Part shown: piece by piece, positions 19,801 to 25,800 of the stretch | Numbering within the stretch: position 1 is the stretch's first letter | How the letters are laid out: each line of letters opens with the position of its first letter | Assembly: GCF_009914755.1 (NCBI RefSeq) | Contig: NC_060928.1 | Length of the DNA: 64,000 bases | Origin: the human T2T-CHM13v2.0 reference genome, Homo sapiens | Direction: 5' to 3' (one strand) | Notes under the pieces: generated by a model | The model's database searches: none | What the model was told of the DNA's origin: nothing | What the model saw: the letters and a program-made list of their open reading frames with translations, nothing else | Position numbers and translations under genes: made by a program

Positions 19801-22800
19801 TGATCAGGGCTCTACCTTAATTTATTTGCTATTTTTAGTTATTTCCTCCTCCCTGTTATCAGTTTTCAAAAGACTACATCATTTTCATACTTCCCACCTG
19901 TATACCACATCACATCACCTAGAGCAGTCTTCAAACAGAAATCTCACCAATCACTACTATTTAAGCAAGTACTGTGTACCAATTGCGTTATGCCTAAATT
20001 AAGGTCAATCTCTAAGTTGGAAGCAAGGGATAAGAATATACAGATGCTCCTCATACAGTGGGGTTACATCCCAGTAAACCCATGGTAAATTGAAAATATC
20101 ATAAGTCAAAACCACATTTAAAATACCCAACCTACCAAACATCACAGCTTATTAGCCTAGCCTAGCCTACCATAAACAGTTTTACATTACTTACATTACA
20201 TTATCCTACAGTTGGACAAAATCATCTAACACAAAGCTTATTTTATAATAAAGTGTTGAATATCTCATGTAATTTATTGAATACTGTAATGGAAATGAAA
20301 CACAGGATGATTGTATGAGTATTCAAAGTATGGTTTCTACCAAATGCATGTCACTTTTACAGTGTCATAAAGCTGCACCATCGTAAGTTGGGGACCATCA
20401 GTATCGATTGGCTTAAGCCAGTCCTGGCTCATTCCCAGAGCTGGGATAGGATTAATCCCACTGGAACTTCATGCCTGCTACCCATGAGGCATAGAACTAC
20501 CGCATCTACTCAACCTTATAACAGTTTCACATTATAAAACATGCTAATAGCAACTTTTCTTTCACTTATAATGGAAACAGATTGAGAAAATGTATTAGTT
20601 TCCTATTGCTATTATAAAAAATTACTATAAGTTTAGTGGCTTAAAACAACACAAGTTTATTATATTAACGTTCTGAAGGTCTGAAATACAAAATGGGCCT
20701 TACTGTGGTAAAATCAAGGTGTCAGCAGGGCTGCATTCCTTCTGTAGGTCCCAGGAGAAAATCTATTTTCTACCCTCTAGAGACTCCCCATACACCTTGG
20801 TTTATGGCTCACTTCCATCTTCAAAGCTAGGAACTGCAGCACCCTCTGCTTCTGTTGCCACGTCTCTTTCTGTGACTCAGACTTTCCTGCCTCCCTCTTT
20901 CACTTATTAGGACCCCTGTGATTATAATGGGCCCACCCAGATAATCCAAAATAACCTCCCCACATCAAAATCTGAACCTAATCATATATACAGTTTCTTT
21001 TGCCATATAAATAGTAATATCTTCAGAGGTTCTGAGGATTAGAACAGAATCATTAGAATGTAAACATCTTGGAAGGGGATTATTCTGCCTACCACAATTT
21101 ACAGGAATCCAGGCTTTCTAGATTACAGACTTAAGTCATATAAAGGAAAAATTCACATTTTTGTTTGTGAATTATTTCTTTTAAAGTATGGGAACTTGTT
21201 GATCAAATCATTGATGATAAGCTTATTTATTCCTTCTGAACCTGTAAATTAGATTGTGTACTTTTTTTTCCCCTTGAACATAGTCTTTGACTTGATTCCT
21301 TCATATATGTCTAAAAATTGGATTGGCATACAATTGTTTTCATAGATCTACTTGAATGTTAATTAGGAGGGGAGGGAAGTCTTCAAACAACCTGGAAAGT
21401 ATTTTTGTGAAAATTAACATTTTTGCTAACTTTAGGTCCAACTGAATATTTTGCCTCAAAATTAGTAGAGCACTCTTCAGCTCAGCCTTGAAGTCATTTT
21501 CTTTTGTCTTTCTGCTTTTATCTTAGCTGTCGTCACCAAAAATACAGTCATGGTAGTCACAGTTATTTTCTCCTTTGTTCTTCTTCTAGCTCTCTCTTCA
21601 TTGTGTTTATCTACCCTCTTTTATTAAAGTCCATAGGGTAGCAATAATGGAGTGATGTATACTTGTGGTAATTATCTGTATGTCCACCTTCTAGAGACTC
21701 CTCATACTCCTTGGTTTATGACTTCCTTCCATAAAGGGAACTGTAAAGGGTTTAGGATTTTACTGTACTTGCAAGCTAATAAGCTAGCCTGTCTTTGTTA
21801 CATGGATACTGGCAGAAGACATAAAACTCCTGAATCAGAGATAAAAGACTATTACTAATGCATAGCAAGCAGCATGAGCATGGCATTAGTGTCAGTTCCA
21901 CGTCTTCCAAGTCCCGTAAAAATGATGTATGTGACGCACCTCCCCCCGCCCACCCAGGCAAAGCAGTGCCTGGTATCACATCACACAAAAGGAACAAAAG
22001 CAAAACACACAAACCAGCTTCAACTTACACTTGGTTACTCAAAAGAACAAGAGTCAATGGTACTTGTCCTAGCGTTTTGGAAGAGGAAAACAGGAACCCA
22101 TCAAACCAACCAATCAACCAAACAAAGAATAAATTCCACAATGAAAGCACGTATTTTGTCTTTTTGCATTTTGGTGTATAAGCCATCAATATTCAGCAAA
22201 ATGATTTCTTTCTTTAAAAAAAAGTGGAGGAAAGTAGAAATTTACCAAGGTTGTTGGCCCGGGGCGTTAAATTTACAGATTTTTTTAACGAGAAAAACAC
22301 ACAAAAAAAGCTACCTCAGGTGTTTTTTACCTCAGCACCTTGCTCTTGTGTTTCCCTTAGAGATTTTGTAAAACTGATAGTTGGAGCATTTTTTTTTATT
22401 TTTTTAATAAAAATGAGTTGGAAAAAAAAAAGATATCAACTGCCAGCCTGGAGAAGGTGATAGTCCAAGTGTGCAACAGCTGTTCTGAATTGTCTTCCGC
22501 TAGCCAAGAACCTATATGGCCTTCTTTTGGACAAACCTTGAAAATGTTTCTTTAAAAAAAAAAAAAAAAAGATGACAAAGAAAAACAGAGATAATATTGG
22601 AGATGTCCTGAATTTTAATAGGGTACATGCCATTAGGGCTTTTTGCACTAAAGGATGAACATGTACTGGTTTATGTGGACAAGCCATTATACCACCAGAC
22701 TGCAATGCCAGTTTCCTCTACGGTGAAACCCCGTCTCTACTAAAAATACAAAAAATCTTAGCCGGGCGTGGTGGCGGGCGCCTGTAGTCCCAGCTACTCG

Positions 22801-25800
22801 GGAGGCTAAGGCAGGAGAATGGCGTGAACCCGGGAGGTGGAGCTTGCAGTGAGCCGAGATAGCGCCACTGCACTCCAGCCTGGGTGACAGAGCAAGACTC
22901 CGTCTCCAAAAAAAAAAAAAAAATGATGTATGTGGGCCTGTGGATTTGTACACATGCAATAGGTTGTATTATAGGAGAGGAATGCTATGAGAAGAGCCTT
23001 GGGAACCCACCATTTTGTAGCAGTCTGTAAGAAAGCCTGTTTTTTGTTGGGGGAGAGAAGTTACCACATCCTTCATGGTTGCACACTGCAGATACAACCT
23101 TAAGAAACGGCCCAGATAAAAAGAGGTCAGGACCTTGCATTTTGGGGCTAGTCAGCAAGAACATACAGGGGTACTCAGAACTTTAAGTATATTGCCTCTC
23201 CCAATACTGTACACCTTAGGCAACTCCCCTCTTCTCTCAATTATCAGCAACAATAAGATTGCATACTAATCTTCTATTTCTGAGGTGCTATCTTTTTGGC
23301 TGTTTTGTACTTTGGGTGGTACCATTCTTATAATCCTTTGAATAGAAATACTTCATCTAGATTTTCTCTTTAATTTAAAAGAAAAACACGTATCAAGGGC
23401 TTTAGATATATAAAACTTAATGAACTGTGATTTCTAAGTTATCTTTAAACTATTGACTAAGTGACAGTGAACCGAGTTATTAGATAATGAATATTAGCAG
23501 TGTTTTAAATAAAAGGGGAAATAGGGTGATATGTTAAACTGAAGCCCAGAGAAAACCTACGTAAAGAAGTGATTCTTAATCTTTTTTGGGTCAAGAATAT
23601 CTCCCGGGCCAGTCACGGTGGCTCACACCTGTAATCTCAGCACTTTGGGAGGCCTAGGCAGGTGGATTGCTTGAACTCAGGAGTTCGAGACCAGCCTGGG
23701 CAACATGAAAAAACCCCATCTCTACAAAAAATACAAAAAAATAGCTGGGCATGGTGGCACATGCCTGTGGTCCCAGCTCCTTGGGAGGCTGAGGTGGGAG
23801 CATTGCTTGAGGCCAGGAGGATTGCTTGGGCCTGGGAGGTCAAGGCTACAATGTCCAAGACAATTTACAGTTGTCTTTTTTTACAACACAGAAATGATCT
23901 TCCAGTGGTCCCCAGCTCAAAGAGGTCTGCTGTTTCAGCTCCAAAGTCAACCAAAGGCAATGGTAAGGATATATTCATTTTACTGTACTCTCCTACGGTA
24001 ATGGGAATGTAAAATGGCACATCCATTTTGGAAAACAGGTTGACAATTTCTTAAAAATTATAACTTACACCTAAAATATAATCCAGCTTTTTCACTGCCA
24101 GCTGTTCACTTGAAGAAAGTAAGCCTATATTCTACATAAAAACTTGGACAGAAATGTTTCTAGCACTTACTTGTAGTAGCCAAAATTTGAAACAACTCAA
24201 ATGTCCAAAAACTGTTGAACTGAAAAACTGGTTGTAATATATCCAAACAATGAAAAGCTACACAGCAATAAAAAGGAATGGACTATTGATACAAGCAAAA
24301 AAATAATTAAAATAAACTCAAAATAAATGTTCTGAATTAAATAAGCCAGAGCATAAGAGAAATAGTTCATACTGTATGATTCTATTACACAGTTGTAGAC
24401 AATGCAAATTATAGTGACAGCAGCTCAGTGGTTATGTGGGACAAACGGGAAGGAAGCATTTAGGGGAACAGGAGAAAGAGATTACAACTATTATGTTTCA
24501 TACTCTGCCAATATGATTGTTTTGAACCGGTGGTGTATTATTGGTATACTTTTTTATTTTTCTTAGAAATTTAATAATATTTTTCTTGCAAGGAATATTA
24601 AAATCCATTCTTGGACTCTTTGTAACATCATCCACAGAATTCTAAAGACTTGTCTATAAAAATTCCATCTCAACTTTTATCTTTCTAGGCAGAATTATTT
24701 CAGGGTCATTCCCAAATAGAGGTTCTTAAATGTATTTACCTATATTTGTTTCTTTCTTTGTTTTGTTATAAAGTTTTCCAAACTCTACCGTATTTTTCTC
24801 AGTCTCTTGAAAATATAATTTAATGAATGAAGTTATATTTAAATATGTGATGTTTTAGCTGTAAGTGAAATATAATCTCCTTTTTTAATATATTGAATTT
24901 TTGTAATGATAGCTAAGAATTAAAATTAACATTTGGTTTAAAAATACATTAAAAGTTCTTTTCTGTTTTATCCATAATTTATTTTCCTGTGTTGAATTGA
25001 TAGTCTTTTTGAAATCAGACTTTAAAAAGCTTACTACCTTCTTTTAAATAGTAAAGTGAACATAGTTAAGCACCTGTGATGGATCACCCATTCAGTGCGA
25101 AAAATTATAATCAGTGTATCACATGAACCATTCAGCCCAAACTGAGCTTTGATGTGAACTATTTTCTTTTAAGAAATTAGCTTTTTCCTCACACCTGTAA
25201 TCCCAGCACTTTGCGAGGCCGAGGCGGGCAGATCACGAGGTCAGGAGATCAAGACCATCCTGGCCAACATGGTGAAACCCCGTCTCTACTAAAAATATGA
25301 AAATTAGCTGGGCATGGTGGCACACACCTGTAATCCCAGATACTTGGGAGGCTGAGGCAGGAGAATCGCTTGAACCAGGGAGTCAGAGGTTGCAGTGAGC
25401 CGAGATCGCACCACTGCACTCCAGCCTGGCAACAGAGCATGACTCTGTCGAAAAAAAAAAAAAAGAAAAAGAAATTAGCTTTTTCCTTGGGATAAACCCA
25501 AAAATATTAGAGGTTTGGAATCAAATATTATTCCATTTATTTGGTTTTTAATCATTTTGTAATATGAATTATTTTTGTGTACTAATAAAAATAACAACAT
25601 CCCAGAAATGTGAGTTTTCTTTAATTATTTTGATGTCCCTCTTGTGGTTTGGATTGGCTCATCCCCTTACTTCCTATATTGTCCTTTCAGGTTCCTACAG
25701 TGTGGGGTCTTGCAGCCAGCCTGCCCTCACTCCTAATGATTCATTCTCCACGGTAAGAAAAAGCCCACCCTCTTTCATGTCATACCTCCTTATCTGAGGA

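What the first reader, a model, noticed from the sequence alone, without database searches (positions are those of the whole stretch)
21918..22934. Chimeric retro-insertion: IGF2BP2-like 3' UTR fused to a truncated AluY inside a single 16-bp TSD
Seen: aaaaatgatgtatgtg occurs at 21918-33 and 22919-34. It brackets ~790 bp of non-repeat, UTR-like sequence joined directly (cctcta|cggtgaaacccc) to the last ~200 bp of an AluY with its A-tail. The Alu has no TSD of its own. Recalled, not searched: the unique part matches the distal 3' UTR of IGF2BP2. Established: L1 reverse transcriptase makes chimeric retrotranscripts by template switching (U6-L1 type). Inference: reverse transcription primed on AluY RNA and then jumped to an IGF2BP2 mRNA in one insertion event. 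The AluY partner would date it to catarrhine primates or later.
Basis: partly seen in the sequence, partly recalled or inferred. Interest (0 to 1): 0.85.

Follow-up and report, generated by a model that had tools for sequence, protein, structure and literature searches.

The report
IGF2BP2 UTR fragment joined to Alu
A 985-base retro-inserted block in a PTPN13 intron joins a piece of the IGF2BP2 3' UTR to the back half of a young Alu inside one target-site duplication; it is a rare but known kind of inert insertion, and whether it arose in one step or two cannot be settled without other primate genomes.

Summary
An exact 16-mer (21918-33, 22919-34) brackets 787 bp that is colinear with the last exon of the parent gene on contig 3. 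Coding sequence carried by three processed pseudogenes identifies that gene as IGF2BP2. The 787 bp is joined, with no A-run and a 2-nt microhomology, to the last ~187 nt of a Y-type Alu plus a 16-A run.

New facts:
- The UTR piece stops 82 nt before the mRNA's real poly(A) site.
- No other locus in this genome carries the junction.
- Both parts are young, about 1.3% non-CpG divergence.

Because the 5' partner lacks its own 3' end, the usual argument for such chimeras fails. An equally compatible rival is an older IGF2BP2 retrocopy whose A-tail was later hit by an Alu, with loss of about 100-200 bp. Relative dating gives T_Alu/T_UTR = 0.49 (95% 0.14-1.46), which is inconclusive. Primate orthologues would decide the matter and are not available here.

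I put one event at about 0.5 and two events at about 0.4. This is a known kind of element with no sign of function, so interest is low to moderate.

The parts
21918..21933 (+). Upstream copy of the 16-bp target-site duplication. The inferred L1 endonuclease nick lies on the bottom strand at TTTTT/AC, between 21917 and 21918.
   Evidence: Exact repeat, (family D8). Parent homology starts at the next base.
21934..22721 (+). 5'- and 3'-truncated copy of the IGF2BP2 3' UTR. It corresponds to parent last-exon positions 1501-2291 of the reverse-complemented L002 and ends 82 nt before the mRNA poly(A) site.
   Evidence: 95% identity to G000:C3:188459653-188460442(-). Colinear blastn and MAFFT alignment. 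Substitutions against the parent 23/753. Gene identity.
22720..22721 (+). 2-nt microhomology 'AC' at the UTR/Alu junction. These bases could come from either template.
   Evidence: The parent reads ..CCTCTAC|TGCA. 32 of 32 Y-like Alus were examined and the column majority reads ..CTAACA|CGGTG.
22722..22907 (+). 3' part of a Y-type Alu: the end of the left monomer, the A-rich linker and the whole right monomer. It lacks about the first 95 nt of a 281-nt Alu body.
   Evidence: 278 blastn hits in the 285 kb sample. Shares 4 of 4 subgroup states with the young 32-of-182 subgroup, with 1/153 non-CpG and 4/32 CpG-site differences from that subgroup's majority sequence. Rfam Metazoa_SRP, E 6e-15.
22908..22918 (+). 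Poly(A) tail. The pure A-run is 22908-22923, and its last 5 A's are also the start of the downstream TSD copy.
22919..22934 (+). Downstream copy of the 16-bp target-site duplication.

Best explanation
One L1-mediated target-primed reverse transcription event made the whole 985-bp insert.

Inferred steps:
1. L1 endonuclease nicked the bottom strand of the PTPN13 intron at TTTTT/AC.
2. The T-run primed on the poly(A) tail of an AluY RNA, and about 187 nt of Alu were copied.
3. The nascent cDNA then moved, through a 2-nt overlap (AC), to an internal site of an IGF2BP2 mRNA 82 nt upstream of its poly(A) site. Alternatively, the two RNA fragments had been ligated beforehand.
4. 787 nt of 3' UTR were copied.
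5. Synthesis stopped and the 5' end was joined bluntly, leaving a 16-bp target-site duplication.

Shown: the anatomy, the two sources, the single TSD, the absence of an A-run at the junction, the absence of the junction elsewhere in this genome, and compatible ages of the two halves. Inferred: that both halves arrived together, and the order of templates.

The insert is an inert intronic passenger, about 10-25 Myr old. That age is my estimate from 11/855 non-CpG changes and a recalled neutral rate.
For: - A single exact 16-bp TSD abuts both ends of the composite.
- The target site is L1-endonuclease-like and the A-tail sits only at the 3' end.
- Both parts lie in the same orientation and are directly joined, with 2-nt microhomology and no A-run or filler.
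- The Alu part has no TSD of its own.
- The parent gene and 3 of 3 processed pseudogenes continue with UTR past the junction. The only Alu near the parent's 3' end is antisense, about 770 bp away and 82% identical.
- A junction-spanning query finds only its own locus end to end (40 of 785 candidates scored).
- Ages are compatible. UTR part: 10/702 non-CpG and 4/16 CpG-site changes on the window lineage. Alu part: 1/153 and 4/32. Fisher p is 0.70 and 0.41.
- The A-run is short and pure (16 A), with no seam that would suggest two merged tails.
- Four of the five published features of such chimeras are met or not contradicted (PMC2104539 Background, passages read).
Against: - The defining feature that makes classical chimeras convincing is not met. 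The 5' partner should be a full-length RNA with its own 3' end, but the UTR piece lacks its last 82 nt and its tail. A deletion can therefore explain the junction equally well.
- The dating point estimate makes the Alu half as old as the UTR piece: T_Alu/T_UTR 0.49, 95% 0.14-1.46. The averaged likelihood ratio is 1.4 in favour of a younger Alu.
- Chimeras with Alu as the 3' partner are reported as rare and were not reproduced experimentally (PMC4476161, passage read).
- The large 2026 catalogue lists only 17 mRNA/L1 chimeras. Fifteen of them map to transcript starts, and splice sites recur at their junctions, unlike here (PMC13174262 section 13).
- Contemporaneous arrival, the criterion that paper uses (section 10), could not be tested.
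Confidence: 0.5

Rival explanations
1. Two events. First, a 5'-truncated IGF2BP2 retrocopy inserted with the 16-bp TSD, carrying the full 3' end and a poly(A) tail. Later, an AluY was primed in the T-run opposite that tail, which automatically gives the same orientation. Then either (a) the Alu insertion came with a target-site deletion that removed the rest of the tail and the last 82 nt of UTR, with the truncated Alu cDNA joined at the AC microhomology (Alu retrotransposition-mediated deletion), or (b) a later deletion of roughly 200 bp removed the UTR end, the tail and the Alu 5' part.
For: - It predicts exactly the observed sequence, including an Alu without its own TSD, an A-run abutting the old TSD, and arbitrary breakpoints with microhomology.
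- It explains without extra assumptions why the UTR piece lacks its 3' end.
- The dating point estimate is 0.49, with an averaged likelihood ratio of 1.4 for a younger Alu.
- A-tails are frequent landing sites. In the 285 kb sample, 34 of 257 Alus with intact 3' ends are followed through an A-rich gap by a same-orientation Alu match: 21 full-start and 13 right-half only. This is an upper bound, the order of insertion is unknown, and the sample is Alu-dense DNA.
- Alu- and L1-associated target-site deletions are documented (PMC4859970 passages). Fourteen chimpanzee-lineage cases are cited in PMC2041999.
Against: - It needs two rare steps at one spot within a short time, since both halves are young.
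- 0 of 3 older IGF2BP2 pseudogenes have an Alu in their tail or A-rich 3' region.
- The A-run is only 16 nt and pure, although it would be the sum of two tails.
- No intermediate form exists anywhere in this genome.
- Equal age is not rejected.
Confidence: 0.4
2. A plain retrocopy of a pre-formed transcript. An ancestral IGF2BP2 allele, since lost, carried a 5'-truncated sense Alu in its 3' UTR at this position. Its mRNA was reverse-transcribed from the Alu's A-tail by internal priming or premature polyadenylation.
For: It gives the same junction with a single TSD. Law and Burns raise the same 'lost variant' caveat for mRNA/L1 chimeras (PMC13174262 section 13).
Against: The present parent locus and 3 of 3 older retrocopies lack any Alu there. 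It needs three unobserved steps: insertion, retrocopy from that allele, and loss of the allele. No such junction exists elsewhere in the genome.
Confidence: 0.05
3. The 16-mer pair is a chance repeat, and the block is a DNA-level rearrangement or assembly artefact rather than a retro-insertion.
For: Five of the 16 bases are A's next to an A-run.
Against: The exact 16-mer sits precisely at both ends of foreign sequence. 0 of 100 shuffles reach the observed count. An A-tail, an endonuclease-like site and a processed-mRNA origin are all present. The assembly is telomere-to-telomere according to the hub's note.
Confidence: 0.02

Closest known systems
Bipartite chimeric retrocopies made by L1 reverse transcriptase template switching (Buzdin et al. 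2002/2003; features as listed in Gogvadze et al. 2007, PMC2104539)
   Same: Two unrelated RNA copies lie in the same orientation and are directly fused. The 3' part is a 5'-truncated retroelement with the only poly(A) tail. The whole is flanked by one short direct repeat at an L1-endonuclease-like site.
   Different: The 5' part is not a full-length RNA but an internal 787-nt piece of a 3' UTR missing its last 82 nt and tail. The 3' partner is Alu rather than L1, a combination described as rare (PMC4476161). I could not read Buzdin 2003 because it is not held, so I do not know whether it lists mRNA/Alu cases.
mRNA/LINE-1 and Alu/LINE-1 chimeric insertions of Law and Burns 2026 (PMC13174262)
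   Same: [quoted passage not shown]
   Different: That catalogue only takes L1 as the 3' element. Of its 17 mRNA pieces, 15 map to transcript starts and splice sites recur at the junctions, with near full-length L1. Here the piece is from the last exon's UTR, no splice site lies at the junction, and the 3' element is a truncated Alu. Neither IGF2BP2 nor PTPN13 occurs in its main text. Its supplementary tables were not looked at.
Alu retrotransposition-mediated deletion (Callinan et al. 2005, seen only as cited in PMC2041999 and PMC4859970)
   Same: An Alu without its own TSD abuts sequence that lacks what should lie next to it, with a microhomology joint.
   Different: The pre-insertion state is unknown here, so the deletion is inferred only from the mRNA's known 3' end. 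I did not read the original paper.
Ordinary 5'-truncated processed pseudogene
   Same: Intronless copy of the 3' part of an mRNA with a TSD and an A-tail. Three such IGF2BP2 copies exist on contigs 1, 12 and 8.
   Different: Those three end at the mRNA's poly(A) site. This one ends 82 nt earlier, and its A-tail belongs to an Alu.

Membership tests
L1-mediated bipartite chimeric retrocopy (template-switch chimera) | The 5' part is a full-length copy of a cellular RNA with an intact 3' end | tested here: not met
   The UTR piece covers parent last-exon positions 1501-2291. The mRNA end shared by 3 of 3 retrocopies is at 2373.
L1-mediated bipartite chimeric retrocopy (template-switch chimera) | The 3' part is a 5'-truncated copy of a retroelement carrying the poly(A) tail | tested here: met
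   About 187 of 281 nt of Alu body followed by a 16-A run.
L1-mediated bipartite chimeric retrocopy (template-switch chimera) | The parts are directly joined in the same transcriptional orientation | tested here: met
   Both lie on the + strand with a 2-nt overlap and no filler or A-run.
L1-mediated bipartite chimeric retrocopy (template-switch chimera) | The whole is flanked by one short direct repeat, and neither part has its own | tested here: met
   16-bp exact TSD. No other flanking repeat pair.
L1-mediated bipartite chimeric retrocopy (template-switch chimera) | Both parts arrived contemporaneously (presence or absence together across species) | not testable with these tools
   No primate genomes are held. 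The surrogate dating is inconclusive: T_Alu/T_UTR 0.49, 95% 0.14-1.46.
AluY subfamily | Subfamily-diagnostic bases in the right half | tested here: met
   It shares 4 of 4 minority-but-common states (fragment positions 57, 101, 104, 123) with the 32-of-182 low-divergence subgroup. The name 'AluY' for that subgroup rests on recalled diagnostic positions, not on a reference library.
IGF2BP2 retrocopy | Best and colinear match to the IGF2BP2 last exon, with the parent identified by its coding sequence | tested here: met
   95% to contig 3. A splice acceptor lies in front of the block in the parent. Pseudogene-borne coding sequence hits 6rol_A IGF2BP2 at 233.7 bits against IGF2BP1 at 222.7.
Alu retrotransposition-mediated deletion | Loss of pre-existing target DNA at the Alu's 5' junction relative to the pre-insertion allele | not testable with these tools
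   It needs an orthologue or allele without the Alu. Only the missing 82 nt plus tail relative to the mRNA is seen.

The most novel reading that the evidence does not exclude
ORF2p that had started on an Alu RNA jumped to an internal site of an mRNA's 3' UTR. An mRNA fragment was thus retroposed without using its own poly(A) tail. Such mRNA-fragment/Alu chimeras would form a class that current catalogues, which require L1 as the 3' partner or an annotated small RNA as the 5' partner, cannot see. A bolder sub-variant is that the two RNA fragments were cleaved and ligated before reverse transcription.
Probability: 0.45. Interest if true: 0.4.

Novelty: new member of a known kind. Interest (0 to 1): 0.25.

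Why it matters
The locus has little consequence in itself. It is an intronic, sense-oriented, non-coding passenger in PTPN13, and the RefSeq table supplied shows no transcript using it.

Its value is as a test case. It shows that a single TSD around two joined retro-sequences does not prove one event when the 5' partner lacks its own 3' end. If primate orthologues show co-arrival, it would document template switching from Alu RNA to an internal mRNA site. The literature I could read treats chimeras with Alu as the 3' partner as rare and experimentally unreproduced.

Tried and rejected
- A majority-rule ancestor for the UTR dating was discarded. Parallel CpG decay in the three old pseudogenes mis-polarised sites. 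It was replaced.
- I looked for a paralogous 'empty site'. Both flanks belong to old dispersed repeats. Three fetched paralogous copies of the upstream repeat stop aligning at window 21927-8 and do not continue into the downstream flank, so they cannot stand in for an empty site.
- No duplicate of the locus carrying an intermediate state was found.
- The direct repeat D4 (A-run + GATG at 22549-74 and 22903-28) was considered as an alternative TSD. It was rejected because the first copy is parent-derived UTR.
- A splice-mediated junction was rejected. No GT donor or AG acceptor lies at the joint.
- An alternative poly(A) site at the junction was rejected. No A-run lies at the joint, and I saw no AATAAA or ATTAAA in the 40 nt before it.
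- tblastn for IGF2BP coding sequence at the contig-14 weak hits found nothing in the held flanks.
- The literature search for this locus (IGF2BP2 + PTPN13 + pseudogene) listed 4 papers. None is relevant by title or abstract.
- The tandem-Alu count is only an upper bound. Thirteen of its 34 cases are right-half-only matches, and the order of insertion is unknown.
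Full report
**What is there.** The window sequence shows the exact 16-mer AAAAATGATGTATGTG at 21918-21933 and 22919-22934. A pattern search allowing 2 mismatches finds 3 sites in the window against 0.22 expected, and 0 of 100 shuffles reach 3. Between the two copies lie 985 bp:
- 21934-22721 is unique-looking sequence.
- 22720/22722-22907 is the back part of an Alu.
- 22908-22923 is a pure run of 16 A, whose last five A's are also the first five bases of the downstream 16-mer.

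The upstream copy is preceded by ..CCCGT. The bottom-strand nick would therefore be at TTTTT/AC, close to the recalled L1 endonuclease preference TTTT/A. No other direct repeat flanks the Alu part alone.

**Source of the unique part.** I searched the window's own genome with 21934-22720. All 8 candidates were scored. Besides the locus itself, there are four near full-length hits:
- contig 3, minus strand, 95%, query 1-787
- contig 1, 93%
- contig 12, 91%
- contig 8, 90%

There are also weak blocks on contig 14 and two short A-rich hits.

Comparing the loci shows that contig 3 is the parent gene. The block shared with the other three, about 1.89 kb, begins right after a polypyrimidine tract and an AG. 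The other three continue upstream into coding sequence and all end in poly(A) after ..CCAGCTAACAAG. They are processed pseudogenes.

The coding sequence carried by the contig-12 copy best matches PDB 6rol_A, insulin-like growth factor 2 mRNA-binding protein 2. The score is 233.7 bits with E 3e-69, near-identical over 117 residues, against 222.7 bits for IGF2BP1.

**A new and important detail.** The window's piece corresponds to positions 1501-2291 of the reverse-complemented parent locus. The mRNA end marked by 3 of 3 retrocopies is at 2373. The piece thus lacks the last 82 nt, which in the parent include A21-G-A9-G-A6, and it lacks the mRNA's own tail.

**The junction.** The parent reads ..CCTCTAC|TGCAAAC and the window reads ..CCTCTAC|GGTGAAAC. 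I examined 32 Y-like Alus from an unbiased sample, and the majority reads ..CTAACAC|GGTG. Two bases, AC at 22720-22721, could therefore come from either template. There is no A-run, filler or splice signal at the joint.

The only Alu near the parent's 3' end is antisense, about 770 bp from the junction position and 82% identical. A junction-spanning query (22640-22934) matches end to end only at its own locus. The 39 other scored places match the Alu part alone, although only 40 of 785 candidates were scored. Together, this means no other locus in this genome carries the junction.

**Identity of the Alu.** Rfam gives Metazoa_SRP at 61.7 bits and E 6e-15, below its gathering score of 70, plus the Alu-derived mir-1268 and mir-3135 families below threshold.

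For a reference I took all Alu right halves from the window, the fetched loci and 200 kb chosen arbitrarily on contigs 19 and 17. That gave 278 hits, of which 182 are near full-length. The fragment carries four states that are in the minority overall but common. Thirty-two of the 182 copies share at least 3 of them, and these copies are the less diverged ones. From recalled diagnostic positions this subgroup is AluY.

Against that subgroup's majority sequence the fragment differs as follows:
- 1 of 153 non-CpG sites (22808 G>A)
- 4 of 32 CpG sites (22838, 22861, 22885, 22894)
- a 2-bp insertion at 22757-8

The 32 copies themselves have a median non-CpG divergence of 2.6% (range 0.7-5.4%) and 23% at CpG sites. 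This Alu is therefore at the young end of the subgroup.

**Dating the UTR part.** I aligned the window piece with the parent and the three pseudogenes. I took the parent as ancestor, except where the window and at least two pseudogenes agree against it, and I masked columns next to indels. The results:
- The window lineage has 10 of 702 non-CpG changes (1.42%) and 4 of 16 CpG-site changes.
- The parent lineage has 5 changes.
- Raw substitutions against the parent are 23/753 for the window, against 29/752, 30/760 and 50/755 for the pseudogenes. The window copy is the youngest of the four.

An earlier version with a majority-rule ancestor was biased by parallel CpG decay and is discarded.

**Comparing the two halves.** Fisher tests give p = 0.70 for non-CpG sites and p = 0.41 for CpG sites. 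A Poisson profile gives T_Alu/T_UTR = 0.49, with a 95% interval of 0.14-1.46. The likelihood ratio for the best ratio against equality is 2.25. Averaged over ratios between 0 and 1 it is 1.41. The ages are compatible, but the test has little power and leans slightly towards a younger Alu.

Pooled non-CpG divergence is 11/855 = 1.3% (95% 0.64-2.3%). With a recalled neutral rate near 1e-9 per site per year, or lower in apes, that is roughly 10-25 Myr.

**Mechanism.** Two readings predict this exact sequence.

(A) One event. TPRT is primed on an Alu RNA tail and about 187 nt are copied. The cDNA then moves to the IGF2BP2 mRNA, or the two RNAs were ligated beforehand. A further 787 nt are copied, followed by 5' joining with a 16-bp TSD.

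Gogvadze et al. 2007 list five features of such chimeras (PMC2104539 Background, passages read):
1. a full-length 5' part
2. a 5'-truncated 3' part
3. random truncation sites
4. direct joining in the same orientation
5. flanking direct repeats

Features 2, 4 and 5 are met and feature 3 is not contradicted. Feature 1 is not met, and this matters. With an intact 5' partner a deletion would have to end exactly at the RNA's 3' end. That requirement is what makes classical U6/L1 chimeras convincing, and the argument is unavailable here.

(B) Two events. An ordinary 5'-truncated IGF2BP2 retrocopy with its tail was hit later by an Alu primed in that tail. A target-site deletion or a later deletion then took away the tail, the last 82 nt of UTR and the Alu's front.

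Supporting points for (B):
- Target-site deletions associated with L1, Alu and SVA are documented (PMC4859970, passages). Fourteen chimpanzee-lineage Alu cases are cited in PMC2041999.
- Tail insertions are common. In my Alu-dense sample, 34 of 257 Alus with intact 3' ends are followed across an A-rich gap by a same-orientation Alu match, 21 full-start and 13 right-half only. This is an upper bound with the order of insertion unknown.

Points against (B):
- 0 of 3 older IGF2BP2 pseudogenes have an Alu in their A-rich 3' ends.
- Both halves are young, which leaves little time for a second event.
- The A-run is short and pure.

Points against (A):
- Chimeras with Alu as the 3' partner are called rare and experimentally unreproduced (PMC4476161, passage).
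- The 2026 catalogue of Law and Burns takes only L1 as the 3' element (PMC13174262; outline, sections 10, 12, 13 and 18, and term searches read).
- That catalogue found only 17 mRNA/L1 cases. Fifteen of them map to transcript starts, and splice sites recur at the junctions, unlike here.
- The same paper states that sequential and contemporaneous insertions are told apart by multi-species alignment, which I cannot do.

My rough base-rate estimates for both routes rest partly on recalled numbers. They come out small and of similar order, so I do not use them to decide. I put (A) at about 0.5, (B) at about 0.4, a lost source allele with a UTR Alu at about 0.05, and the rest on chance or artefact.

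**Comparison and novelty.** If (A) holds, this is a new member of the known class of L1-mediated chimeric retrocopies, and an unusual one: an internal 3' UTR fragment as 5' partner and Alu as 3' partner. If (B) holds, it is an ordinary retrocopy plus an Alu-associated deletion.

Neither IGF2BP2 nor PTPN13 occurs in the main text of PMC13174262. A full-text search for IGF2BP2 + PTPN13 + pseudogene listed 4 papers, none relevant by title or abstract. Buzdin 2003 is not held, and I did not look at supplements, so I cannot say the locus is unlisted there.

I saw no evidence of function. The insert is intronic and sense to PTPN13, and the supplied RefSeq table shows no exon or transcript end in it.

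**Verdict.** The one-event mechanism is plausible but unproven. The decisive test is the orthologous locus in apes and Old World monkeys. Interest is 0.25.

Noticed in passing
L003 (G000 contig 1), L004 (contig 12), L005 (contig 8): Three older processed pseudogenes of IGF2BP2. They carry the C-terminal coding sequence and the whole 3' UTR, and all end in poly(A) at the same site. Raw substitutions against the parent over the 787-nt stretch are 30/760, 29/752 and 50/755.
   Followed up: partly
L006/L007 (G000 contig 14, about 23.04 Mb): Three colinear blocks are 72-81% identical to parts of the UTR piece (window 22152-22224, 22321-22525, 22627-22676). tblastn found no IGF2BP-like coding sequence in the held flanks. 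This is either an ancient retrocopy or a conserved paralogous UTR.
   Followed up: partly
window 21738-21928 and 22949-23208: Both flanks of the insertion are old dispersed repeats. The upstream one has 350 candidate loci (40 scored, 72-85% identical) and ends inside the TSD region at about 21928. The downstream one has 16 other loci at 67-82%. The families are not named.
   Followed up: partly
window 22128-22133 and 22406-22411: Two AATAAA hexamers lie in the insert, sense to PTPN13. The first was created by a window-lineage A>T change at 22130 and the second is inherited from the parent UTR. No RefSeq transcript in the supplied table ends there.
   Followed up: no
window 22311-22318 and 22328-22334: CTACCTCA and TACCTCA motifs look like let-7 seed matches (the motif is recalled). 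They are retained from the IGF2BP2 UTR and are irrelevant to mature PTPN13 mRNA because they are intronic.
   Followed up: no
window 21934-21960 and L002 (parent): The retrocopy's 5' end lies 7 nt upstream of a long C-run in the parent (about 16 C). In the window that run is broken into CCTCCCCCCGCCCACCC. The 5' truncation just after crossing this run may reflect a stall in reverse transcription. This is speculation.
   Followed up: no
window 22553-22569: An internal A-run of the UTR piece is 17 A in the window against 12 in the parent. It is not a poly(A) tail, because the parent and all pseudogenes have it.
   Followed up: yes
window 55522-55826: A full-length Y-type Alu with a long pure A-tail. 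Its right half is the closest in-window relative of the chimera's Alu part, at 94.6% identity.
   Followed up: no
L009-L028 (contigs 19 and 17 sample): In 13 cases a right-half-only Alu match (starting near Alu position 118-128) follows directly behind the A-tail of another same-orientation Alu. Some form chains, for example L012 4359-5048. These may be truncated tail insertions, duplicated right arms or monomer cross-matches.
   Followed up: no
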